Virus record (IMG/VR): IMGVR_UViG_2585427748_000011
Span: 1 to 11,618 of that record
Source of the DNA: a virus
Taxonomy: Duplodnaviria; Heunggongvirae; Uroviricota; Caudoviricetes
DNA length: 11,618 bases
Reading direction: 5' to 3' (one strand)
The notes under the pieces are model-generated. The model searched no databases and had not been told where the DNA came from. It saw nothing but the letters and a program-made list of their open reading frames with translations. Both the position numbers and the translations under genes were made by a program. This document shows, in pieces, positions 1 through 10,252 of this stretch. Position 1 is the stretch's first letter, and each line of letters opens with the position of its first letter.

Positions 1-333
1 ACTGGCATGTTTCATGATGTAACGCATGCCGGTGATGTATTGCCCCTCATGCTGACTGGCGCGGCTGTACGGGGGATTACCAAAGGCAGCACCTTTAAGC
101 TCCGCAAGACGTTCAGACCAGTCATGCGCCAGCGCGTTGTCTTCCGCAGTGTAATAAGCGGCACATTTGGCGTTATCACCATCAGTGAACAGATCCAGAA
201 CAAACGGGCCAAACAGGGTGTTAATTCCCCAGAAAATGTTGTCCGGCGTGCGCCACTGATCGCCCACTTCCTTCAGTTCATGGGCTGGTTTGTTTCGCAG
301 CTCCACCAGCGCCTGGCAATATTTATTACTCAT
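1..333 (-). CDS. Phage Dam-family DNA N6-adenine methyltransferase, N-terminal part only (gene continues beyond left window edge)
   Basis: Reverse-complement translation from ATG at 333-331: MSNKYCQALVELRNKPAHELKEVGDQWRTPDNIFWGINTLFGPFVLDLFTDGDNAKCAAYYTAEDNALAHDWSERLAELKGAAFGNPPYS..., containing an NPPY catalytic-type motif. The ATG overlaps the TAA stop of the upstream gene (coupling). Not in the ORF track because no stop lies within the window. Confidence 0.6.
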   Translation of the reverse strand, partial: MSNKYCQALVELRNKPAHELKEVGDQWRTPDNIFWGINTLFGPFVLDLFTDGDNAKCAAYYTAEDNALAHDWSERLAELKGAAFGNPPYSRASQHEGQYITGMRYIMKHAS

Positions 334-2996: not shown

Positions 2997-3623
2997 ATGG
3001 AAACGGTTGGTCAGCGTATAAAAGCTCTGAGAAGAGTTACCGGAACGTCCCAGAAAGAATTGGGTAAATTTTGTGGAGTAAGCGACGTTGCTGTGGGGTA
3101 CTGGGAGAAAGACATCAATACCCCTGGTGGGGAGGCACTTTCGAAATTAGCGAAGTTCTTCAATACGTCAATAGATTACATTCTTTATGGTGCTGAGTTT
3201 GAAGGCAAACTCGTCACAAACATGCGCAGAGTTCCTGTAATATCGTGGGTTCAGGCTGGGCAGTTTACTGAGTGCAGGGCAGCAGAAGTGTTTAGTGAAG
3301 TGGACAAGTGGGTAGATACATCATTAAAGATTGGTGATAACTCATTTGCATTAGAGGTTAAAGGTGACTCCATGACTAACCCTAATGGCCTCCCAACAAT
3401 ACCAGAAGGCGCAACAGTGATTGTAGATCCAGATGCAGAACCTCGTCATGGAAAAATAGTCATCGCTCGACTTGATGGAACAAACGAAGCTACAGTAAAA
3501 AAATTAGTCATCGATGGCCCTCAAAAGTTTTTAGTGCCATTAAATCCTCGGTATCCCAACATCCCTATCAATGGTAATTGCCTTATCATTGGTGTAGTCA
3601 AAGGAGTTCAATACGAACTCTAA
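2997..3623 (+). CDS. CI-type prophage repressor (N-terminal HTH_XRE, C-terminal S24 LexA-like autopeptidase)
   Basis: 208 aa. N-terminus QRIKALRRVTGTSQKELGKFCGVSDVAVGYWEKD is an XRE-type HTH. C-terminal domain has the Ser motif GDSM and downstream Lys (ATVKKLV) of the S24 Ser-Lys dyad, and a LexA-like cleavage site VQAG-QF. Confidence 0.85.
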   Translation: METVGQRIKALRRVTGTSQKELGKFCGVSDVAVGYWEKDINTPGGEALSKLAKFFNTSIDYILYGAEFEGKLVTNMRRVPVISWVQAGQFTECRAAEVFSEVDKWVDTSLKIGDNSFALEVKGDSMTNPNGLPTIPEGATVIVDPDAEPRHGKIVIARLDGTNEATVKKLVIDGPQKFLVPLNPRYPNIPINGNCLIIGVVKGVQYEL

Positions 3624-3644
3624 GACCTCTCTTCTCTAACTAAG

Positions 3645-3678
3645 GCACCGAACTAAGAAAAGTTTGGTGTTTTCTCTT
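3645..3678 (+). terminator. Candidate intrinsic terminator downstream of the repressor gene
   Basis: Stem CACCGAACT (3646-3654) pairs with AGTTTGGTG (3661-3669), 9 bp with one G-U; loop AAGAAA; followed by TTTTCTCTT (3670-3678). The reverse strand has no U-tract. Confidence 0.5.
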
Positions 3679-3705
3679 GCCATAATAACTAAGTTAAGTT
3701 AGATT
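3677..3705 (+). promoter_or_regulatory. Candidate pL-like early-left promoter with operator dyad in the spacer (OL-like)
   Basis: -35 TTGCCA (3677-3682), 17-bp spacer, -10 TAGATT (3700-3705). Spacer contains dyad TAACT-A-AGTTA (3686-3696), same core as the dyad at 2909-2919. Identified by eye only. Confidence 0.3.
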
Positions 3706-3910
3706 TTATATCAAAGATAACGAACAGGCAGGACGCCCACGAAGTAGCCGCCTGGGGCATATGAAGTCCAGGATGATTCGTTGAGTCATGTTGTGCCACT
3801 AGGCACTCATGTTAAAGCAGGTGTATGAAATGAAAGTCCAGATTTTAAACAATAACTGTGAAGTCGTTTGGGCGTAAAACATGACCGCGCGTAGACCAAG
3901 GGAGGAAAAA

Positions 3911-4087
3911 GTGGGAATAGTTAGAAATCAAGCAGATATATTGAAAATCAGCTCTGAATTGCTTGGAGTTTTGAAAAGTGAGCTCACCGCACATGGCATC
4001 GAGCCCACTGACGAAAATTTAAGTTGGGTTTTGTCGATTATTCAACAATCACTCAAGCCCAGCCTCAGCAAACTTTTTATCGAGTAG
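3911..4087 (+). CDS. Small hypothetical protein (58 aa from GTG 3911; 68 aa if ATG 3881)
   Basis: Strong SD GGGAGG (3899-3905) 6 nt before in-frame GTG 3911; ATG 3881 has no SD. AT-rich island; overlaps the 3' end of a convergent minus-strand ORF by 39 bp. Confidence 0.35.
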   Translation: MGIVRNQADILKISSELLGVLKSELTAHGIEPTDENLSWVLSIIQQSLKPSLSKLFIE

Positions 4088-4240
4088 TGCTTCGAACTTA
4101 TCGTAAAGCTTGCTTATGTCGTCTATCGGGTTTTCTGACGTACTGTAATTTTTATCTGATGTCATGGCAGCAGTCTGATATGCAGTGTGAGTCTTAACCG
4201 ATAGTTGGAATAAATAAAGAATTTTTTCTTCTTTGGTCAT
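4049..4240 (-). CDS. Small hypothetical protein, 63 aa (MTKEEKILYLFQLSVKTHTAYQTAAMTSDKNYSTSENPIDDISKLYDKFEALLDKKFAEAGLE)
   Basis: ATG at 4240-4238 preceded on the minus strand by AAGGAA at about 8 nt spacing. The track ORF 4049..4282 starts further upstream without an RBS. AT-rich, convergent with the repressor and the + strand small ORF. Confidence 0.45.
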   Translation of the reverse strand: MTKEEKILYLFQLSVKTHTAYQTAAMTSDKNYSTSENPIDDISKLYDKFEALLDKKFAEAGLE

Positions 4241-4495
4241 AACTATTTCCTTCTTGGCTATATGAAAACACCAAGATACCACCGAGCCTGAAGTGGTGAA
4301 AAGACAGGCACATAACAGCTAAGTATTTTCAACCAGAGAGAATCCTTAGCGTTGTGGTGAATGCGGCTCAGCGCACGCGGGTTAAGGTTGAGGCTGACAG
4401 TCGACCTTCTGTGGATACCCACCCGCCTGGTGTGCAACTTTCGCCAGGCACCGGGAGGCACCCGGCACCACAACTTTATGCTGTGTGTAGTCCTC

Positions 4496-4541
4496 GCGGT
4501 ACCAGTTTGTACACTTGCTTCCGGCTGGTACCGCTCTTTTT
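4496..4541 (+). terminator. Terminator-like hairpin in the untranslated leader (possible 3' end of a small RNA or an antiterminated terminator)
   Basis: Perfect 10-bp stem GCGGTACCAG (4496-4505) / CTGGTACCGC (4525-4534), 19-nt loop, then TCTTTTT (4535-4541). The loop is long for a canonical terminator. Confidence 0.45.
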
Positions 4542-4630
4542 ACAAAACAGAGAAGAACATCACCGGACGACGGGCTCATAACCCAATCCATCCGGGCGGC
4601 TGCCACCGCAGGTGTTCTTCTCTGTTTTGT
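4542..4630 (+). other. Long perfect inverted repeat (18 bp arms, 53-bp spacer) predicted to form an extended RNA stem; candidate RNase III processing site or structured regulatory RNA
   Basis: ACAAAACAGAGAAGAACA (4542-4559) is the exact reverse complement of TGTTCTTCTCTGTTTTGT (4613-4630). The stem can extend with G-U pairs into the preceding U-tract. No ORF with an RBS spans it. Confidence 0.4.
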
Positions 4631-4678
4631 GGAGAAACCAACCGACCTTGCAGGGTCGATATGATTAGGAGCAGAAAA

Positions 4679-5041
4679 ATGGCTAGCGAACGCAGTACTG
4701 ATGTGCAGGCATTTATTGGGGAGCTGGACGGCGGCGTATTTGAAACCAAAATCGGCGCAGTTCTCAGTGAAGTCGCTTCCGGTGTGATGAACACGAAAAC
4801 CAAAGGTAAGGTCTCACTCAACCTGGAAATCGAACCATTTGATGAGAACCGTGTGAAAATCAAACACAAACTCTCATATGTTCGCCCGACTAACCGCGGG
4901 AAAATTTCCGAAGAAGACACCACCGAAACGCCGATGTATGTCAATCGCGGTGGTCGCCTGACTATTCTGCAGGAAGACCAGGGACAATTACTGACTCTTG
5001 CCGGTGAACCTGACGGAAAACTCCGCGCAGCAGGTCATTAA
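4679..5041 (+). CDS. Hypothetical phage early protein, 120 aa (YfdP-like by length and position)
   Basis: ATG 4679 preceded by AGGAG (4667-4671, spacing 7). The track ORF 4361..5041 carries a 106-codon Arg/Cys-rich N-terminal extension across the structured region, judged non-coding. Confidence 0.7.
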   Translation: MASERSTDVQAFIGELDGGVFETKIGAVLSEVASGVMNTKTKGKVSLNLEIEPFDENRVKIKHKLSYVRPTNRGKISEEDTTETPMYVNRGGRLTILQEDQGQLLTLAGEPDGKLRAAGH

Positions 5042-5106
5042 TATCGTTCTTAATTAACCGATTATTTATCTCATCACTGAATATCTTTATATAGTGAGGA
5101 CTTATT

Positions 5107-5931
5107 ATGTCTCAGAACTTAGACGCAACCGCAATTAATCAAATCCATGCCCTTATTTCTGCTCAGGGTGTTAATGAAATTATCAGTAAGATTGGTGCCG
5201 ATGCTGTGGCATTGCCTGAGAATTTCCGCATTCATGATCTGGAAAAATTTAATTTAAATCGCTTCCGTTTCCGTGGTGCGCTTTCCACTGCCAGCATCGA
5301 TGACTTTACCCGTTATTCTAAAGATCTTGCAGATGAAGGCACCCGCTGCTTTATCGATGCCGATAATATGCGTGCCGTCAGTGTGCTTAACCTGGGTACT
5401 ATTGGTGAACCAGGTCACGCAGATAACACCGCCACACTCAAACTGAAAAAGACAGCACCGTTCTCTGCTCTGTTGTCTGTTAACGGCGAGCGTAACTCCC
5501 AGAAGTCACTGGCAGAATGGATTGAAGACTGGGCCGACTATCTTGTGGGCTTTGATGCTAATGGTGACGCTATTAAGGCAACAAAAGCGGCTGCGGCGGT
5601 CCGTAAAATCACGATTGAAGCAAACCAGACCGCTGATTTTGAAGATAATGACTTCAGCGGCAAACGCTCCCTGATGGAGTCTGTCGAAGCGAAGACCAAA
5701 GATATTATGCCAGTGGCATTTAAATTTAAATGCGTTCCGTTTGAAGGCCTGAAAGAACGTCCGTTTAAATTACGCCTCAGCATTATCACTGGCGATCGTC
5801 CTGTACTGGTTCTGCGCATTATTCAGCTGGAAGCAGTGCAGGAAGAAATGGCTAACGAATTTCGTGATCTGCTTGTTGAGAAATTTAAAGACAGCAAAGT
5901 AGAAACCTTTATTGGTACTTTCACCGCCTGA
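5107..5931 (+). CDS. Hypothetical phage protein, 274 aa (YfdQ/DUF2303-like by recollection)
   Basis: ATG 5107 preceded by GTGAGGA (5094-5100); clean 274-aa ORF; family assignment is from memory of length and gene order in CPS-53. Confidence 0.7.
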
Positions 5932-5943
5932 TTTCATTACTGC

Positions 5944-5965
5944 AAATGCCCCTGCGGGGGCATTT
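5944..5965 (+). terminator. GC-rich hairpin between genes (weak terminator or mRNA-stabilising stem)
   Basis: AAATGCCCC (5944-5952) / GGGGCATTT (5957-5965), 9-bp perfect stem with UGCG loop. The 3' flank ATGGAAAC lacks a real U-tract. Confidence 0.3.
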
Positions 5966-6059
5966 ATGGAAACATAATTGACTCAATAATCGCCTGATGG
6001 CGAGGGTTTTCTTTAACCAAAATTCAGCGCGGTGCAGCGCATATAAAGTGGAGAACAAA

Positions 6060-6596
6060 ATGTCATTTATTAAAACTTTTTCCGGGAAGCATTTTTATTA
6101 TGACAGGATAAATAAAGACGACATCGTGATTAACGATATCGCGGTTTCCCTTTCAAATATCTGCCGCTTTGCCGGTCATCTTTCTCACTTCTACAGTGTC
6201 GCCCAACATGCGGTGCTTTGCAGCCAGCTGGTGCCGCAGGAATTTGCTTTTGAAGCGTTAATGCATGATGCAACAGAAGCGTATTGCCAGGATATTCCCG
6301 CTCCACTGAAACGCCTTCTTCCTGACTATAAACGGATGGAAGAAAAAATAGACGCCGTAATCCGTGAGAAATACGGGTTACCCCCGGTTATGAGCACGCC
6401 CGTGAAATATGCCGATCTCATCATGCTGGCAACCGAACGCCGCGATCTCGGGCTTGATGATAGCTCTTTCTGGCCTGTACTGGAAGGTATCCCGGCAACA
6501 GAGATGTTCAAAGTGATTCCACTGTCGCCAGGCCATGCCTACGGGATGTTTATGGAACGTTTTAACGAGTTATCGGAGTTACGCAAATGCGCATGA
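6060..6596 (+). CDS. HD-domain 5'-deoxynucleotidase (YfbR/YfdR-like dNMP phosphohydrolase)
   Basis: 178 aa from ATG 6060 (GGAG at 6049-6052); HD-domain signature H...HD...D in VAQHAVLCSQLVPQEFAFEALMHDATEAYCQDIPAPLKRLL. The track ORF start at 5997 lacks an RBS. Confidence 0.75.
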   Translation: MSFIKTFSGKHFYYDRINKDDIVINDIAVSLSNICRFAGHLSHFYSVAQHAVLCSQLVPQEFAFEALMHDATEAYCQDIPAPLKRLLPDYKRMEEKIDAVIREKYGLPPVMSTPVKYADLIMLATERRDLGLDDSSFWPVLEGIPATEMFKVIPLSPGHAYGMFMERFNELSELRKCA

Positions 6597-6937
6597 ATGT
6601 TTTCGAAATGGAAGGGTTTCTTCGCGGGAAATGTGTACCACGAGATCTGAAAGTGAATGAAACAAATGCTGAGTATCTGGTGCGTAAATTCGATGAAGTA
6701 CGTGCTGAGGCTCGCAACGAGGGTATTAACTATACCGCAAGCCGTCTTGCTGCGGCTTTCAATCACGGATTTATCAATAAGTCTTTACGTGAAGTTTTCG
6801 ACGTTACACGCATGATTCTGTCAGCGAAAGAAGAGTTGGCTAATGAACCACACCCGATTGATGGCCTGTCCGGTGAATATGCGGAGAAATCCCTAGAAGA
6901 ATGGGCGGAACAGATTCGCAAAGGAGGCAACCAGTGA
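6587..6937 (+). CDS. Hypothetical early protein X, 116 aa (C-terminus ...EEWAEQIRKGGNQ)
   Basis: GGAG (6575-6578) 8 nt before ATG 6587; alternative ATG 6593 forms ATGA with the upstream stop. Its stop TGA overlaps the GTG start of the next gene (GTGA). Confidence 0.6.
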   Translation: MRMNVFEMEGFLRGKCVPRDLKVNETNAEYLVRKFDEVRAEARNEGINYTASRLAAAFNHGFINKSLREVFDVTRMILSAKEELANEPHPIDGLSGEYAEKSLEEWAEQIRKGGNQ

Positions 6938-7614
6938 GCAAGATTGACTATCAAGAACTGCGCGAGGCGGCGGAACAGGCAACGCAAGATGAATGGGTAG
7001 CATATATTTTGCCGGGTCATAACGGCATTTATCCTGCGCGCACGTCTGAGGGTAGGCATTGCGGATACTTTATTGACTGGCCTGGCGTCTGTCAGGGGCG
7101 GGAGAGCATCAGCATCAGAACCTACGCAGTGAATTGCAATGACGCATGGCTAAACACCGAAGGTGATGACATCTCCGGCTCATACGTTAAGTACAAAGAC
7201 CATCAGGAAGTGGTTGCCGCTCTTGAGGCCAAGTGCGCGGCGCTGGCTGCTGAGAATGCGGGAATAAAGTCTGCAATTCCAAAATCACGGGATATTGAGG
7301 ATGACAATGACAATATGGATGACGTATCTCTCGCGGAAGACTTCGGGTTCAATCATGCAATAGAACGGATGAGGAGACAGATACCTGAAACGCCAACCAC
7401 TGATGCTTTCCTGGCTGAAGTCCGGGCGCAGGGGGTGGATGCTGCTATAGAAGCTGCAAAAAATCTGGTGGCCCAAGAATATGAGTGTAAGGATTTCAAA
7501 GCGGCGCAGAGTGATTGCTGTATGCACCCTGGTTCAGACCTGGTAGGGAAGGTTGAAATGACTGAGTGGTTAGTTGACTTTGCTGCCCAGCTTCGCAAAG
7601 GAGGCAATCAGTGA
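6934..7614 (+). CDS. Hypothetical early protein Y, 226 aa, mosaic (N-terminus like protein Z, C-terminus like protein X)
   Basis: AAGGAGG (6921-6927) 6 nt before GTG 6934. N-terminus SKIDYQELREAAEQA; C-terminus ...DFAAQLRKGGNQ; coiled-coil-like middle. The track start ATG 6901 has no RBS. Confidence 0.6.
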   Translation: MSKIDYQELREAAEQATQDEWVAYILPGHNGIYPARTSEGRHCGYFIDWPGVCQGRESISIRTYAVNCNDAWLNTEGDDISGSYVKYKDHQEVVAALEAKCAALAAENAGIKSAIPKSRDIEDDNDNMDDVSLAEDFGFNHAIERMRRQIPETPTTDAFLAEVRAQGVDAAIEAAKNLVAQEYECKDFKAAQSDCCMHPGSDLVGKVEMTEWLVDFAAQLRKGGNQ

Positions 7615-8147
7615 GCGAAATTAATTACCAGGCACTGCGTGAGGTGGCGGAACGTGCAATTCCAGCAATGGAACGCCTGTTAATGTTGCCAGTTGATGAT
7701 GATTTGTTAAGTGAACAGGAACTTAAAGATTACGGTGTGGATATTGATGCGCTCAATGCCTTCAAATTTCTGACCGGACCAGAAACCGTGCTGGCACTAC
7801 TGGATGAACGGGAAAGAAACCAGCAATACATCAAACGCCGCGACCAGGAGAACGAGGATATTGCGCTTACGGTTGGGAAGCTGCGCGTTGAGCTTGAAGC
7901 AGCAAAATCAAAACTCAACGAGCAGCGCGAGTATTACGAGGGAGTTATCTCTGATGGGTGCAAGCGTATTGCTGAACTGGAAGCGCGGGAAGTTCAATTA
8001 CCGACTCGCTACGACCTTCGATATGGACACCCGATAAATGCAGATGAGCGACAAGTCATGATACCTAAAGAAAATGGCAGTTGGCTTTACCTGATTGACC
8101 TAGAACACGCATTACGCGTCGCTGACATTCGCATCAAAGGAGAGTGA
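7611..8147 (+). CDS. Hypothetical early protein Z, 178 aa (N-terminus SEINYQALREVAERA; coiled-coil-like C-terminal half)
   Basis: AAGGAGG (7598-7604) 6 nt before GTG 7611, which overlaps the stop of Y (GTGA). The junction sequence is near-identical to the X/Y junction. Confidence 0.6.
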   Translation: MSEINYQALREVAERAIPAMERLLMLPVDDDLLSEQELKDYGVDIDALNAFKFLTGPETVLALLDERERNQQYIKRRDQENEDIALTVGKLRVELEAAKSKLNEQREYYEGVISDGCKRIAELEAREVQLPTRYDLRYGHPINADERQVMIPKENGSWLYLIDLEHALRVADIRIKGE

Positions 8148-8148
8148 T

Positions 8149-8664
8149 ATGGCGTTAACACACCACGAACTCTGTCAGATTGCGTACAAGTTCCTTAAGC
8201 GCAACGGGTTCAAGGTTTGCTTTCATGACCGCTTTGTTGCTGTAACCAGTACCGGAGAACAGCCAGATGCTATGGGATTCAGAAATTCAGCATCATGCCT
8301 GATAGAGGCGAAGTGTTCTCGTGCTGACTTGTTGGCAGATAGAAAAAAGCGTTTCCGTAAAAATCCCTCACTTGGCATGGGCGACTGGCGATTCTTTATT
8401 AGTGAGCCGGAAATTATTTCAGTTGAGGATTTACCTCCCGGCTGGGGATTACTTCACGTTGTTAACGGAAGAGTACGGAAAGTACATGGATGGCCCAGGG
8501 GTAATTGCTGTTGGGGTAATCCTGACGATAAGCCATTTACCGGGAATAAGCAGGTTGAATGCGATTACATGTTATCTGCATTAAGGCGCATGGAGCTAAG
8601 AGGACACCTTAATGAAATATATGACGGTGTAATTGTTAATAAGAAAGAAGGAAACGCAGCATGA
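8149..8664 (+). CDS. PD-(D/E)xK nuclease-superfamily protein (MmcB-like by recollection)
   Basis: 171 aa; RBS AGGAGAG before ATG 8149; motif D...E-x-K in GEQPDAMGFRNSASCLIEAKCSRAD. Confidence 0.55.
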   Translation: MALTHHELCQIAYKFLKRNGFKVCFHDRFVAVTSTGEQPDAMGFRNSASCLIEAKCSRADLLADRKKRFRKNPSLGMGDWRFFISEPEIISVEDLPPGWGLLHVVNGRVRKVHGWPRGNCCWGNPDDKPFTGNKQVECDYMLSALRRMELRGHLNEIYDGVIVNKKEGNAA

Positions 8665-9530
8665 CCACTTTAACCGACAAAGAACTGATTAAAGAAATCA
8701 GAGAGCGTATAGGCAGCCTGGACGTCCGAGACAATATTGAGCGTCGGGCTTATGAAATTGCTCTGGCATCGCTGGAACGCGAACAGATTCGCCACGAGCA
8801 TGCCAAATGGTCTGACTCCACATTTGGCTGCGTTGGCCCCATTGGTCCGCTGAAACATCTCTCAAAAGAGGCACTGGAAGCCGCAGCCGAACCAGACGAT
8901 CTTAGCGAGTGGGCTGATATGCAGTTTCTGTTGTGGGATGCACAGCGCCGTGCTGGCATCAGCGATGCTGAAATTACCGCTGCTATGGAAGATAAATTGA
9001 AGATCAACATGGAACGCCAGTGGCCTGAACCAAAAGATGGTGAGCCTCGCTTGCACATTAAAGAACCCGGCAACTCTCCGGTAACTCCGGCTCGCCTGCC
9101 TGGTGGTTTCACCATTGAGGATGCGAAGGCATTACATGAAGACCTGGTTCGCAGCCACATAAGCCAGGCTTTAAGTGGTGAAAAGATGAAAAAGAACGAT
9201 CGCGATGCTGATTTGCGCTGGATTCATGGCGTAATAGTTCAGGCAGCGTGGTTTGTAAAAGCATCACTGGAGCAAAATGCACTATCGGGCAACTATCCGG
9301 TAACTCCGGATGGTTGGATAAGCTGTAGTGAGCGAATGCCGAAAAAGAATCAGAACGTACTTATTTCGGTGAATTTCGATAGTGATCTGGTTGAGCCGCT
9401 AATATGCTCCGCACGCTATACCGGAAGTACCTTTCGGCGAGGACAAGCAACGATTAAGCCGGGTAATGGTATTGAGCAGGCAACCCACTGGATGCCGCTG
9501 CCAGAACCGCCGCAGGAGGTGAATCAATGA
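8661..9530 (+). CDS. Two-domain phage protein: N-terminal MazG-like NTP pyrophosphohydrolase-type region (DUF550-like), C-terminal DUF551-like domain
   Basis: 289 aa; ATG 8661 overlaps the upstream stop (ATGA), RBS GAAGGAAA. N-terminal acidic helical motif EALEAAAE...EWADMQFLLWDAQRRAGISDAEI; C-terminal WISCSERMPKK...THWMPLPEPP. Domain names are from memory. Confidence 0.55.
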   Translation: MTTLTDKELIKEIRERIGSLDVRDNIERRAYEIALASLEREQIRHEHAKWSDSTFGCVGPIGPLKHLSKEALEAAAEPDDLSEWADMQFLLWDAQRRAGISDAEITAAMEDKLKINMERQWPEPKDGEPRLHIKEPGNSPVTPARLPGGFTIEDAKALHEDLVRSHISQALSGEKMKKNDRDADLRWIHGVIVQAAWFVKASLEQNALSGNYPVTPDGWISCSERMPKKNQNVLISVNFDSDLVEPLICSARYTGSTFRRGQATIKPGNGIEQATHWMPLPEPPQEVNQ

Positions 9531-9610
9531 GCTGGCCTGATGCAATCGTAACTCTGGGGATGGTATTCGCAGTAGCGTTTGTTGTGTACTCGATTTGTCG
9601 ATGGGGATAA
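9527..9610 (+). CDS. Small hydrophobic peptide, 27 aa (MSWPDAIVTLGMVFAVAFVVYSICRWG), predicted single transmembrane helix
   Basis: Strong SD AGGAGGT (9514-9520) 6 nt before ATG 9527, which overlaps the upstream TGA (ATGA). Too short to appear in the ORF track. Confidence 0.45.
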   Translation: MSWPDAIVTLGMVFAVAFVVYSICRWG

Positions 9611-9614
9611 CCAC

Positions 9615-9857
9615 ATGTTCGCTTTGATTCAACGCGGTCAGATATACACGGACAGAGCTGGATACCCCGTGGTGATTACTCGCATCACTGAGCACTCAGT
9701 GTTCTTTCGACGGATGGACGGACGATCCGGGCGGGTACGCATTGGTGAGTTAAACTGCCTGTTCGAACATATTGACCACCAGGAGTACCGCAAAATTCTC
9801 GCGGACACTGAGCAGGAAAAGCACCTGAAAAAATTACGAGCCATAAAAAGGAAGTAA
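9615..9857 (+). CDS. Hypothetical small phage protein, 80 aa (possibly DUF4222-like)
   Basis: ATG 9615 with weak SD GGGGA; the track ORF starts at TTG 9579 inside the preceding peptide ORF. Basic C-terminus KHLKKLRAIKRK. Confidence 0.5.
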   Translation: MFALIQRGQIYTDRAGYPVVITRITEHSVFFRRMDGRSGRVRIGELNCLFEHIDHQEYRKILADTEQEKHLKKLRAIKRK

Positions 9858-9860
9858 AGA

Positions 9861-10007
9861 ATGAATAAAGCATTTGAACGATGGGTCCACCAGCGTTACG
9901 GCAATCGCTATGACCTGACGCGAGATGTTGACGGCTTCTACTGTCGTGAAGTTGTGAAGCGAATGTTTGAAGTGTGTTGCCACTGCCGTGGGCTGAGTGT
10001 TGTGTGA
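9861..10007 (+). CDS. Small Cys-rich protein, 48 aa (MNKAFERWVHQRYGNRYDLTRDVDGFYCREVVKRMFEVCCHCRGLSVV)
   Basis: AAGGAAG 6 nt before ATG 9861; its stop lies beside the GAGG RBS of xis. Four Cys in the C-terminal 20 residues. Not in the ORF track (below length cutoff). Confidence 0.4.
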   Translation: MNKAFERWVHQRYGNRYDLTRDVDGFYCREVVKRMFEVCCHCRGLSVV

Positions 10008-10015
10008 GGTAATAC

Positions 10016-10252
10016 ATGGGCAATGTGATTCAACTGGCTCCCAATGAATGGGTTTGTGAAAGCGTTCTTATCGCAATTACCGGGCTCAAACCAGGCACAA
10101 TTCTTCGGGCCCGGAAAGAATGCTGGATGGTTGGAAGAGAGTATATTCACGTATCACCAGACGGTAATCCAAAGCCTTCCAGTGAATGTATGTATAACAG
10201 AAAAGCAATAGATGCCTGGGTCGCCTCAATGAAAAACAAACAACCCAGGTGA
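10016..10252 (+). CDS. xis: Excisionase-like protein (Xis)
   Basis: 78 aa immediately upstream of the integrase; MGNVIQLAPNEWVCESVLIAITGLKPGTILRARKECWMVGREYIHVSPDGNPKPSSECMY matches my recollection of enterobacterial phage excisionase-like proteins; RBS GAGG. Confidence 0.7.
   Translation: MGNVIQLAPNEWVCESVLIAITGLKPGTILRARKECWMVGREYIHVSPDGNPKPSSECMYNRKAIDAWVASMKNKQPR

What the first reader, a model, noticed from the sequence alone, without database searches (positions are those of the whole stretch)
6060..9530. Cluster of nucleotide- and DNA-modifying functions in the early operon (HD 5'-deoxynucleotidase, PD-(D/E)xK nuclease-like, MazG-like pyrophosphohydrolase, plus Dam methyltransferase at the left edge)
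The early-left operon encodes an HD-domain dNMP phosphohydrolase (clear HD motif), a protein with a PD-(D/E)xK motif, and a protein whose N-terminal half looks MazG-like. Together with the phage Dam methyltransferase, this suggests manipulation of host nucleotide pools or nucleic acids, for example counter-defence or superinfection exclusion. Enzymatic assignments other than the HD motif are tentative.
Basis: partly seen in the sequence, partly recalled or inferred. Interest (0 to 1): 0.5.

Follow-up and report, generated by a model that had tools for sequence, protein, structure and literature searches.

The report
Mosaic accessory genes in prophage early operon

Summary
Window 6060-9530 (+) carries six translationally coupled genes in the early-left operon of a CPS-53/Sp15-type lambdoid prophage, in the position of lambda's exo-xis region.

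- **HD protein (6060-6596):** this is yfdR, 97% identical to E. coli K-12 YfdR. YfdR is a published weak 5'-deoxynucleotidase and DnaA binder.
- **289-aa protein (8661-9530):** PF04447 (DUF550, MazZ-like dATP/dGTP pyrophosphohydrolase, E 6e-42), then a helical linker, then DUF551.
- **Dam gene:** real, but it lies on the opposite strand in the rightward replication operon.

The genes do not travel together. DUF550 sits in 2 of 51 yfdR-bearing viral contigs, and yfdR in 6 of 60 DUF550-bearing contigs. Only 15 of 928 E. coli genomes with the nuclease gene have DUF550 beside it. No defence-system model matches, and there is no PurZ. The conserved module is yfdP-yfdQ-yfdR. I read this as mosaic accessory cargo of modest interest.

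The parts
6060..6596 (+). yfdR: HD-domain phosphohydrolase (5'-deoxynucleotidase, DnaA-binding protein)
   Evidence: 97% identical to K-12 YfdR b2361. Matches phrog_318 at E 1.6e-111 and PDB 2gz4 at E 1.4e-13. Motif residues H50, H69-D70, E73, D78, D119 are present. PGAP names close copies 'yfdR: 5'-deoxynucleotidase'.
6587..6937 (+). 116-aa chimera: N-terminal 42 aa of YfdS joined to an Ea22-type C-terminal module; no DUF551
   Evidence: 37/42 identical to the start of K-12 YfdS. The C-terminus matches phrog_614/368. No Pfam hit. PGAP names an identical-length copy 'YfdS family phage-associated protein'.
6934..7614 (+). Ead/Ea22-like coiled-coil protein (GTG start overlapping the upstream stop)
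   Evidence: PF13935 at E 1.8e-27. The GTGA junction is repeated at 7611.
7611..8147 (+). Second Ead/Ea22-like protein
   Evidence: PF13935 at E 7.5e-37. Matches phrog_250 at E 5e-83.
8149..8664 (+). 171-aa PD-(D/E)xK nuclease-fold protein, an unannotated sister family of MmcB-like (PF06319)
8661..9530 (+). 289-aa protein: variable leader, DUF550/MazZ-like NTP pyrophosphohydrolase domain (nt 8787-9074), 73-aa helical linker (about nt 9075-9290), DUF551 beta-domain (nt 9312-9515)
   Evidence: PF04447 at E 5.8e-42 and PF04448 at E 4.7e-21. The only PDB sequence hit is MazZ 7ody (E 0.29). hhalign to a MazZ fragment gives E 3.9e-4. E70/E73/E77 and E83/D86 are invariant in a shallow alignment. The linker is flanked by a 22-nt direct repeat.
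4676..5931 (+). yfdP and yfdQ (DUF2303): the genes that really are linked to yfdR
   Evidence: YfdP is present in 42 and YfdQ in 46 of 51 yfdR-bearing viral contigs. DUF2303 matches at E 6e-91. The K-12 layout is yfdP-Q-R-S-T.
1..333 (-). 5' part of a phage Dam (N6-adenine) methyltransferase gene, the yfdM homologue; cut by the window edge and in the rightward operon, so not part of the cluster
   Evidence: PF05869 at E 1.2e-25. The translation carries NPPY. Neighbours are annotated in L001 and K-12.
9527..9610 (+). Unannotated 27-aa hydrophobic small ORF, ATGA-coupled to the stop of the DUF550-DUF551 gene
   Evidence: Read directly from the sequence. The peptide is conserved in 11 amino-acid variants over 30 loci, including Sakai Sp15.

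Best explanation
Window 6060-9530 is the promoter-distal, accessory part of the early-left (pL-type) transcript of a CPS-53/Sp15-type lambdoid prophage of E. coli. It is the positional counterpart of lambda's exo-xis region. Six translationally coupled genes would be made together in the first minutes after induction or infection; this timing is inferred from the layout. They are separately exchangeable cassettes, not one machine.

(a) YfdR is shown to be the K-12 orthologue. By published work it is a weak 5'-deoxynucleotidase that binds DnaA domain I. Together with YfdQ plus YfdS or YfdT it inhibits oriC initiation. Its most likely role here is to slow host chromosome initiation.

(b) Two Ea22-like coiled-coil proteins and a YfdS/Ea22 chimera are lysis-lysogeny modulators by analogy with lambda Ea22.

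(c) The 171-aa protein is an MmcB-like PD-(D/E)xK enzyme. I infer a metal-dependent DNA endonuclease acting on branched or damaged DNA during phage recombination or repair.

(d) The DUF550-DUF551 protein is a MazZ-like pyrophosphohydrolase. I infer that it converts purine (d)NTPs to (d)NMP plus PPi, with DUF551 serving as a portable adaptor domain.

Any joint effect on nucleotide pools would be incidental to this particular mosaic.
For: Identity and layout:
- Close relatives are annotated E. coli prophages. Two of them (TOE17 and AHB12) are integrated next to mlrA.
- K-12 CPS-53 shows the same yfdM-yfdN | yfdP-Q-R order.
- Stop and start codons overlap or abut across all six genes, and there is no internal + strand promoter-like site.

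Assignments:
- YfdR is 97% identical to the K-12 protein. DnaA binding, initiation inhibition and low nucleotide affinity are from PMC4776307.
- Nuclease fold and motif. Purifying selection.
- PF04447 and DUF551. MazZ similarity. The dATP/dGTP pyrophosphohydrolase activity of a DUF5664-DUF550 fusion protein and of MazZ is reported in PMC12884076 and PMC8342488.

Independence of the cassettes:
- Co-occurrence counts.
- Only 1 of 5,426 genomes has at least 80% of the region in one place, and none has at least 80% of the whole window.
- Repeated junction sequences lie at module borders.

Context of the nuclease family:
- Neighbours are always on the same strand in early regions. They include Ea22-like genes (25 of 104 loci), RdgC (5), NinG (5), NinB (5) and an Rv2179c-like exonuclease (3).

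The exo-xis region is described as a mosaic pL-driven accessory region linked to inhibition of host DNA replication in PMC10834534.
Against: - No activity was measured for any of these proteins in this allele.
- The structure model of the DUF550 domain was poor (pLDDT 30-45), so its fold rests on sequence profiles only.
- The biochemically tested DUF550 protein is a fusion with DUF5664. DUF5664 has dNTP pyrophosphohydrolase activity on its own (PMC12884076), so the activity of a lone DUF550 domain is less certain than the Pfam name implies.
- The nuclease's substrate is a guess from fold and neighbours.
- The co-occurrence counts come from redundant E. coli-rich samples, and the tblastn detection misses distant analogues of each enzyme.
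- The YfdS-like gene here lacks DUF551, so it is unknown whether the published YfdQ/R/S effect on DnaA operates in this prophage.
Confidence: 0.7

Rival explanations
1. Coordinated nucleotide-pool manipulation. The MazZ-like enzyme converts dATP/dGTP to dNMPs and the HD enzyme YfdR then removes the last phosphate. This would be a two-step dNTP-to-deoxynucleoside drain that starves host or competitor DNA synthesis, like the DatZ + MazZ pair of Z-genome phages but without PurZ.
For: Both enzymes are in one translationally coupled operon. The DatZ family is the YfbR-like HD family, and DUF550/MazZ is its partner in PurZ phages (PMC12884076). YfdR is annotated as a 5'-deoxynucleotidase.
Against: The pair is rarely together: 2 of 51 and 6 of 60 contigs. 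yfdR is linked to yfdP/yfdQ instead. No PurZ-like ORF is in the window. YfdR's nucleotide affinity is reported as low and its function as elusive (PMC4776307). Z-phage DUF550 proteins form their own clade (PMC12884076), so their specificity cannot simply be transferred.
Confidence: 0.12
2. Counter-defence or superinfection-exclusion cargo. One or more of the genes, most plausibly the 171-aa nuclease or the MazZ-like hydrolase, neutralises a host immune system or blocks incoming phages.
For: The location is early-expressed and accessory. The nuclease gene is also frequent on plasmids: 248 places on E. coli plasmids and 864 PLSDB records. One example sits beside mobilisation, StbB and HicAB genes. 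Distant homologues are translationally coupled to Dam-type methyltransferases.
Against: No PADLOC defence model matches any of the ten proteins tested. No anti-defence family is known for any of them. The methyltransferase association is seen in only about 13 of 104 loci. No experimental hint was found in the papers read.
Confidence: 0.12
3. Decaying pseudogenes. The 171-aa ORF and the DUF550-DUF551 ORF are remnants, as RefSeq annotation suggests ('frameshifted', 'incomplete').
For: PGAP labels 99.8-100% identical copies as a frameshifted pseudogene and as two partial pseudogenes. The Sakai Sp15 copy does carry a 2-nt deletion in the catalytic codons.
Against: Both ORFs are uninterrupted in the window. 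Full-length 160-176-aa homologues with conserved catalytic residues occur across many genera. dN is much lower than dS. At least 525 of 958 E. coli records carry the undeleted form. A 289-aa protein 99% identical to the window's exists elsewhere, in a cluster of 27 member sequences. The pseudogene labels may arise because the truncated O157-type product serves as PGAP's reference; this is an inference.
Confidence: 0.05

Closest known systems
E. coli K-12 cryptic prophage CPS-53 genes yfdP-yfdQ-yfdR-yfdS-yfdT (YfdR: HD-domain 5'-deoxynucleotidase and DnaA-binding protein)
   Same: yfdR is 97% identical. The yfdM-yfdN | yfdP-yfdQ-yfdR order is the same. The first 42 residues of YfdS are retained.
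   Different: Downstream of yfdR the cargo differs. K-12 has YfdS (with DUF551), YfdT and TorI. This window has a YfdS/Ea22 chimera, two Ea22-like genes, the nuclease and DUF550-DUF551.
Lambda and Stx-phage exo-xis region (Ea22 and neighbours)
   Same: Same position in the pL operon upstream of xis-int. Ea22-family genes are present. The region is mosaic with portable C-terminal domains including DUF551 (PMC10834534).
   Different: The lambda small genes orf60a/61/63/73 were not found. This region carries enzyme-fold cargo instead.
MmcB-like family (PF06319; Caulobacter MmcB; structure 3dnx of SPO1766)
   Different: The window protein does not hit the PF06319 model, and only 8 of 62 relatives hit it weakly. 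It is phage- and plasmid-borne, and it has an extra conserved C-terminal helix region (K128-P129, E137, R146-R147).
MazZ of cyanophage S-2L (7ody) and the DUF550 dATP/dGTP pyrophosphohydrolase of Acinetobacter phage SH-Ab 15497
   Same: Pfam family PF04447. ExxE...ExxD motif and the KLxINxxRxW helix align with MazZ.
   Different: No PurZ or DatZ context. It is fused to DUF551 rather than DUF5664. E. coli prophage members lie outside the Z-phage clade (PMC12884076). Substrate is unknown.
YfbR of E. coli and phage T5 Dmp (5'-deoxyribonucleotidases)
   Same: HD metal-binding motif. The PHROG annotation is 'deoxyribonucleoside 5' monophosphate phosphatase'. That this label derives from T5 Dmp is my own recollection, not checked here.
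   Different: Scores far below the YfbR equivalog cut-off (19.6 against 122 bits) and just below the Pfam YfbR-like cut-off. There is no host-DNA-degradation programme in a temperate lambdoid phage.

Membership tests
YfdR orthologue group / HD-domain phosphohydrolases | H...HD...D metal-binding residues | tested here: met
   H50, H69-D70, E73, D78 and D119 are present and align with Atu1052 2gz4.
YfdR orthologue group / HD-domain phosphohydrolases | Near-identity and synteny with K-12 yfdR | tested here: met
   173/178 identical. Preceded by yfdP-yfdQ as in K-12.
YfbR-type 5'-deoxynucleotidase (Pfam PF12917 / NCBIfam NF003009) | Score above the curated cut-off | tested here: not met
   Pfam 24.0 against 25.9 bits. 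NCBIfam 19.6 against 122 bits.
YfdR function | 5'-deoxynucleotidase activity; DnaA binding | not testable with these tools
   Taken from PMC4776307 for the K-12 protein.
PD-(D/E)xK nuclease superfamily | alpha-beta-beta-beta-alpha-beta core fold | tested here: met
PD-(D/E)xK nuclease superfamily | Catalytic D ... (D/E)-x-K on strands 2 and 3, conserved across the family | tested here: met
   D40 is invariant. E53 and K55 are invariant in 36 close relatives and at least 90% conserved in 62 distant ones.
MmcB-like (PF06319) | Match to the family HMM | tested here: not met
   No hit for the window protein even at E 10. 8 of 62 relatives hit weakly, best E 2.9e-4. The 3dnx fragment hits at E 3.2e-32.
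MmcB-like (PF06319) | Closest solved structure is a family member | tested here: met
MazG-like all-alpha NTP pyrophosphohydrolase / PF04447 (DUF550, MazZ-like) | Match to the family HMM above cut-off | tested here: met
   142.3 bits against a cut-off of 23, E 5.8e-42, residues 43-138.
MazG-like all-alpha NTP pyrophosphohydrolase / PF04447 (DUF550, MazZ-like) | Acidic ExxE ... ExxD metal-binding motif | tested here: met
   E70, E73, E77, E83 and D86 are present and invariant in a shallow alignment. The ExxD helix aligns with MazZ.
MazG-like all-alpha NTP pyrophosphohydrolase / PF04447 (DUF550, MazZ-like) | Four-helix-bundle fold | tested here: inconclusive
   The AF2 model is helical but pLDDT is 30-45 in this domain. 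Foldseek gave no match at E <= 0.001.
Z-genome (PurZ-DatZ-MazZ) pathway | PurZ (adenylosuccinate-synthetase homologue) encoded nearby | tested here: not met
   No such ORF is in the 11.6-kb window and all larger ORFs are accounted for. The rest of the prophage was not seen.
Dedicated multi-gene system (operon-level module) | Components co-occur across genomes | tested here: not met
   2/51, 6/60, 6/51 and 1/60. 15 of 928 genomes. 4-5 of 80 loci.
Known anti-phage defence systems (PADLOC) | Match to any defence protein model | tested here: not met
   0 hits for 10 proteins at E <= 0.01.
Phage Dam methyltransferase (PF05869) | HMM match and NPPY motif | tested here: met
   E 1.2e-25. NPPY is in the translation. 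It is on the minus strand and in another operon.

The most novel reading that the evidence does not exclude
Two readings that the evidence does not exclude.

(i) The 171-aa protein represents a very widespread family of early-expressed phage and plasmid PD-(D/E)xK nucleases that carries no family annotation and is partly mis-annotated. The family has at least 3,300 clusters at 50% identity. RefSeq labels copies as 'frameshifted' or as 'adenylosuccinate synthase'. Distant members are translationally coupled to Dam-type methyltransferases and RdgC. The family could be a methylation-aware or structure-specific nuclease used in conflicts between mobile elements.

(ii) In this mosaic the DUF551 domain of the MazZ-like protein replaces the DUF551 that the YfdS-like gene has lost. 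That would tether a dNTP hydrolase to the YfdQ-YfdR complex that inhibits DnaA.
Probability: 0.12. Interest if true: 0.55.

Novelty: new member of a known kind. Interest (0 to 1): 0.25.

Why it matters
The value is mainly in annotation and triage. The region is ordinary lambdoid accessory cargo, so it should not be flagged as a new nucleotide-manipulation or defence system.

Two by-products are useful:
- A large PD-(D/E)xK family related to MmcB has no Pfam, NCBIfam or named PHROG model. In the RefSeq records examined, intact E. coli copies are hidden behind 'frameshifted' labels, possibly because a truncated O157 allele serves as the reference; distant copies are called 'adenylosuccinate synthase'. 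In both cases the gene is hard to see in protein-based surveys.
- MazZ-like DUF550 enzymes are common in ordinary (non-Z-genome) E. coli prophages, occurring in about half of complete genomes. Their role there is unknown and is easy to test.

Tried and rejected
- **AlphaFold2 of the 289-aa protein** with a 31-sequence alignment. The alignment was too shallow. The DUF550 part had pLDDT 30-45 and only DUF551 was confident. Foldseek against the PDB then gave nothing below E 0.49. No fold claim is made from it.
- **phmmer of the full 289-aa and 171-aa proteins against PDB sequences.** There were no useful hits. A domain-only query and a family profile were needed.
- **PADLOC scan.** No hits.
- **Z-genome reading (HD + DUF550 as DatZ + MazZ).** Rejected because there is no PurZ and the pair rarely co-occurs.
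- **'Adenylosuccinate synthase' label on distant plasmid homologues**. It looked like a PurZ lead. The proteins are only 227 and 257 aa, which is far shorter than PurA, and they have no Pfam hit. Their N-terminal parts are the nuclease domain, so I treat the label as a naming error.
- **A general nuclease-methyltransferase partnership.** Methyltransferases of four types appear within 3 genes in only about 13 of 104 loci. That is too weak to build on.
- **Genome-contig scan with the diverse alignment A2.** It failed for lack of a conserved stretch. It was repeated with A1 and returned 33 loci.
- **Pseudogene reading of the nuclease and DUF550-DUF551 ORFs.** Rejected.

Full report
**What the window is.** The 11.6-kb window is the immunity and early region of a lambdoid prophage of E. 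coli.
- On the + strand lie a LexA/S24-type repressor (2997-3623), yfdP (4676-5041), yfdQ/DUF2303 (5107-5931), and then the six genes of the finding (6060-9530). After them come a DUF4222 gene, an excisionase (10016-10252, PF06806) and a tyrosine integrase that runs off the right edge.
- On the - strand lie cro-like and cII-like genes, a replication-initiator-like gene (824-1765), a PerC-family yfdN homologue (333-827) and the start of a Dam methyltransferase (1-333).
- Close relatives are annotated E. coli prophages, two of which are integrated beside mlrA.
- K-12 cryptic prophage CPS-53 has the same core order, yfdM(Dam)-yfdN-yfdO | yfdP-yfdQ-yfdR-yfdS-yfdT-torI.
- The finding's region therefore occupies the distal pL operon upstream of xis-int. 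This is the place that lambda's exo-xis region occupies (PMC10834534).

**Check of the observation.** The coordinates are exact: 6060 is the yfdR start and 9530 is the stop of the last gene.
- The six genes are coupled as follows: yfdR stop/next start overlap by 10 nt; GTGA overlaps at 6934 and 7611; a 1-nt spacer at 8148; an ATGA overlap at 8661.
- No + strand promoter-like site lies between 6000 and 9600, and only weak terminator-like hairpins were found.
- The Dam gene is real (PF05869, E 1.2e-25, NPPY). It lies on the other strand in the rightward operon, so it is not part of this transcription unit.

**HD protein.**
- The 178-aa product is 173/178 identical to K-12 YfdR.
- It matches phrog_318 at E 1.6e-111 and the HD protein Atu1052 (2gz4) at E 1.4e-13. 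It carries H50, H69-D70, E73, D78 and D119.
- It is not a YfbR equivalog: NCBIfam gives 19.6 against 122 bits, and Pfam YfbR-like gives 24.0 against 25.9 bits.
- Noguchi and Katayama (PMC4776307) report three things about K-12 YfdR. It is a structural homologue of YfbR with much lower nucleotide affinity. It binds DnaA through the Phe46 region of domain I. Extra copies of yfdQ + yfdR + (yfdS or yfdT) inhibit oriC initiation.
- This part of the finding is therefore an already known gene.

**PD-(D/E)xK protein.** The 171-aa ORF (8149-8664) has no Pfam or NCBIfam hit and only function-unknown PHROGs.
- Its 308 word-index homologues are all 'hypothetical'.
- A profile of 36 of them finds 3,305 cluster representatives at E <= 1e-3 in the 50%-identity library.
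- D40 is invariant. E37, E53 and K55 are invariant among close relatives and at least 90% conserved among 62 distant ones. A following S57-R58-x-D60-F/L motif is conserved too.
- The AlphaFold2 model is confident (pLDDT 84.9, pTM 0.79). It has the canonical helix, three strands, helix, strand order, with D40 at the start of strand 2 and E53/K55 on strand 3.
- The 3dnx sequence belongs to Pfam MmcB-like PF06319 (E 3.2e-32). A family profile hits 3dnx by sequence at E 1.2e-4.
- Single members hit Hjc (18 of 36; 12 of 62) and MmcB-like (8 of 62) only weakly.
- The gene is under strong purifying selection: dN is 0.07-0.25 while dS is saturated, and dN/dS is 0.03-0.10 where it can be computed.
- I file it as a member of the PD-(D/E)xK superfamily and a sister family of MmcB-like, not as a member of PF06319.

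**MazG-like protein.** The 289-aa product is modular: a variable leader, a PF04447 domain (residues 43-138, E 5.8e-42), a 73-aa helical linker absent from many alleles, and DUF551 (residues 218-285, E 4.7e-21).
- The acidic residues E70, E73, E77, E83 and D86 fit the ExxE...ExxD pattern of MazG-type enzymes.
- The only PDB sequence hit of the domain is MazZ of cyanophage S-2L (7ody, E 0.29). hhalign to the MazZ fragment gives E 3.9e-4 with the ExxD helix and a KLxINxxRxW helix aligned.
- The structure prediction failed for this domain, so the fold is supported by sequence only.
- Published work assigns dATP/dGTP pyrophosphohydrolase activity to a DUF5664-DUF550 fusion and (d)GTP-specific activity to MazZ. 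It also shows that DUF5664 alone is active, and that Z-phage DUF550 proteins form their own clade (PMC12884076, PMC8342488).
- The name is therefore a good lead for chemistry but not for substrate.

**Do the genes form a system?** The evidence says no.
- In 5,426 complete E. coli genomes, yfdR occurs in 2,971, the nuclease gene in 928 (with 248 places on plasmids), and pieces of the DUF550-DUF551 gene in 2,947.
- Only one genome holds at least 80% of window 5900-9900 in one place, and none holds at least 80% of the whole window.
- Only 15 genomes have the nuclease gene and DUF550 side by side.
- In IMG/VR, 51 yfdR contigs with at least 4 kb downstream carry yfdP (42) and yfdQ (46), but DUF550 in only 2 and the nuclease in 6.
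- Sixty DUF550 contigs with at least 4.5 kb upstream carry an Ea22-like gene (51), but yfdR in only 6 and the nuclease in 1.
- Among 80 viral loci chosen for the nuclease family, HD, DUF550, DUF551 and Dam relatives each appear in only 4-5.
- Module borders carry repeats. An 89-nt repeat spans the '...RKGGNQ stop / GTG start' junction of both Ea22-like genes. A 22-nt repeat (encoding GN(S/Y)PVTP) brackets the linker of the 289-aa protein. These are the sort of sequences at which cassettes could be exchanged.
- No PADLOC defence model matches.

**Context of the nuclease family.** In 104 loci with a gene model, the neighbours are always co-oriented early genes.
- They include Ea22-like genes (25 loci), an unannotated modular protein (32), RdgC (5), NinG (5), NinB (3+2), an Rv2179c-like exonuclease (3), DNA methyltransferases of four kinds (about 13 in all) and YfbR-like HD proteins (2).
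- On plasmids the family is frequent (864 PLSDB records).
- In two distant cases the homologue is translationally coupled to a Dam-type methyltransferase next to rdgC, and is mislabelled 'adenylosuccinate synthase'.
- This fits a recombination or repair nuclease best. It does not exclude a conflict-related role.

**Verdict.**
- The region is mosaic accessory cargo of a well-known kind.
- One gene is already characterised (yfdR). One belongs to a named family (DUF550/MazZ-like with DUF551).
- One is a new, unannotated member family of the PD-(D/E)xK superfamily.
- Interest is modest at 0.25. The main residual novelty is the nuclease family and the unexplained prevalence of MazZ-like enzymes in ordinary E. 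coli prophages.

Noticed in passing
window 9527-9610 (+): Unannotated 27-aa hydrophobic ORF (MSWPDAIVTLGMVFAVAFVVYSICRWG) whose ATG overlaps the stop of the DUF550-DUF551 gene. The peptide pattern MxWP(D/E)A...(Y/F)SICRWG is kept in 11 amino-acid variants over 30 loci, including the unannotated gap before the DUF4222 gene in Sakai Sp15. It is probably a real small membrane peptide.
   Followed up: partly
window 6894-6982 and 7571-7659: 89-nt direct repeat (76% identity) covering the end of one gene ('...RKGGNQ' stop) and the GTG start of the next Ea22-like gene. It is a repeated module junction that could serve as a recombination site for cassette exchange.
   Followed up: partly
window 9069-9090 and 9288-9309: 22-nt direct repeat (95% identity) encoding GN(S/Y)PVTP on both sides of the 73-aa helical linker between DUF550 and DUF551. 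Many alleles lack the linker, so it looks like an insertion/deletion between these repeats. This long allele is at >=80% coverage in only 1 of 5,426 complete E. coli genomes.
   Followed up: partly
L245 (E. coli O157:H7 Sakai, prophage Sp15) 5001-5514, against window 8149-8664: The Sakai copy of the 171-aa nuclease gene has a 2-nt deletion exactly in the I52-E53 codons of the catalytic E-x-K motif, leaving a 58-aa product (ECs_3008). RefSeq PGAP labels intact copies that are 99.8-100% identical to the window as 179-nt 'frameshifted' pseudogenes, so the intact gene is not annotated as a CDS in the E. coli records examined. That the Sakai-type truncated product is PGAP's reference is my inference.
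   Followed up: partly
L247 7001-7684 (Citrobacter plasmid NZ_CP115618.1) and L248 4741-5514 (Bordetella plasmid NZ_CP016173.1): Distant homologues of the nuclease (about 38-43% identity over the N-terminal domain) are annotated 'adenylosuccinate synthase', although they are only 227 and 257 aa and have no Pfam hit. Both overlap by 4 nt with a Dam-type methyltransferase gene and lie next to rdgC.
   Followed up: partly
window 6587-6937 (+): The gene that PGAP calls 'YfdS family' in a related genome keeps only the first 42 residues of K-12 YfdS (88% identical). The rest is an Ea22-type C-terminus, and the DUF551 domain of K-12 YfdS is missing. The only DUF551 in the window is on the MazZ-like protein.
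   Followed up: partly
L246 (plasmid pSTEC2018_607-d) 6001-6516: The nuclease gene is common on E. coli plasmids (248 places in complete genomes; 864 PLSDB records across many genera, about half of them predicted conjugative). One copy 100% identical to the window's lies between stbB and hicAB on a 59.8-kb plasmid.
   Followed up: no
window 5107-5931 (+) and 4676-5041 (+): yfdQ (DUF2303, E 6e-91) and yfdP are the genes truly linked to yfdR (46 and 42 of 51 contigs). Both have unknown biochemical function, although yfdQ is required for the published DnaA-inhibition phenotype.
   Followed up: no
window 3623-4676: About 1 kb lies between the repressor gene and yfdP, with a promoter-like site at 3677-3705 (+) and only small unassigned ORFs (for example 3881-4087, 68 aa, with no family hit). 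This is presumably the pL/operator and N-like antiterminator region, but it was not identified.
   Followed up: no
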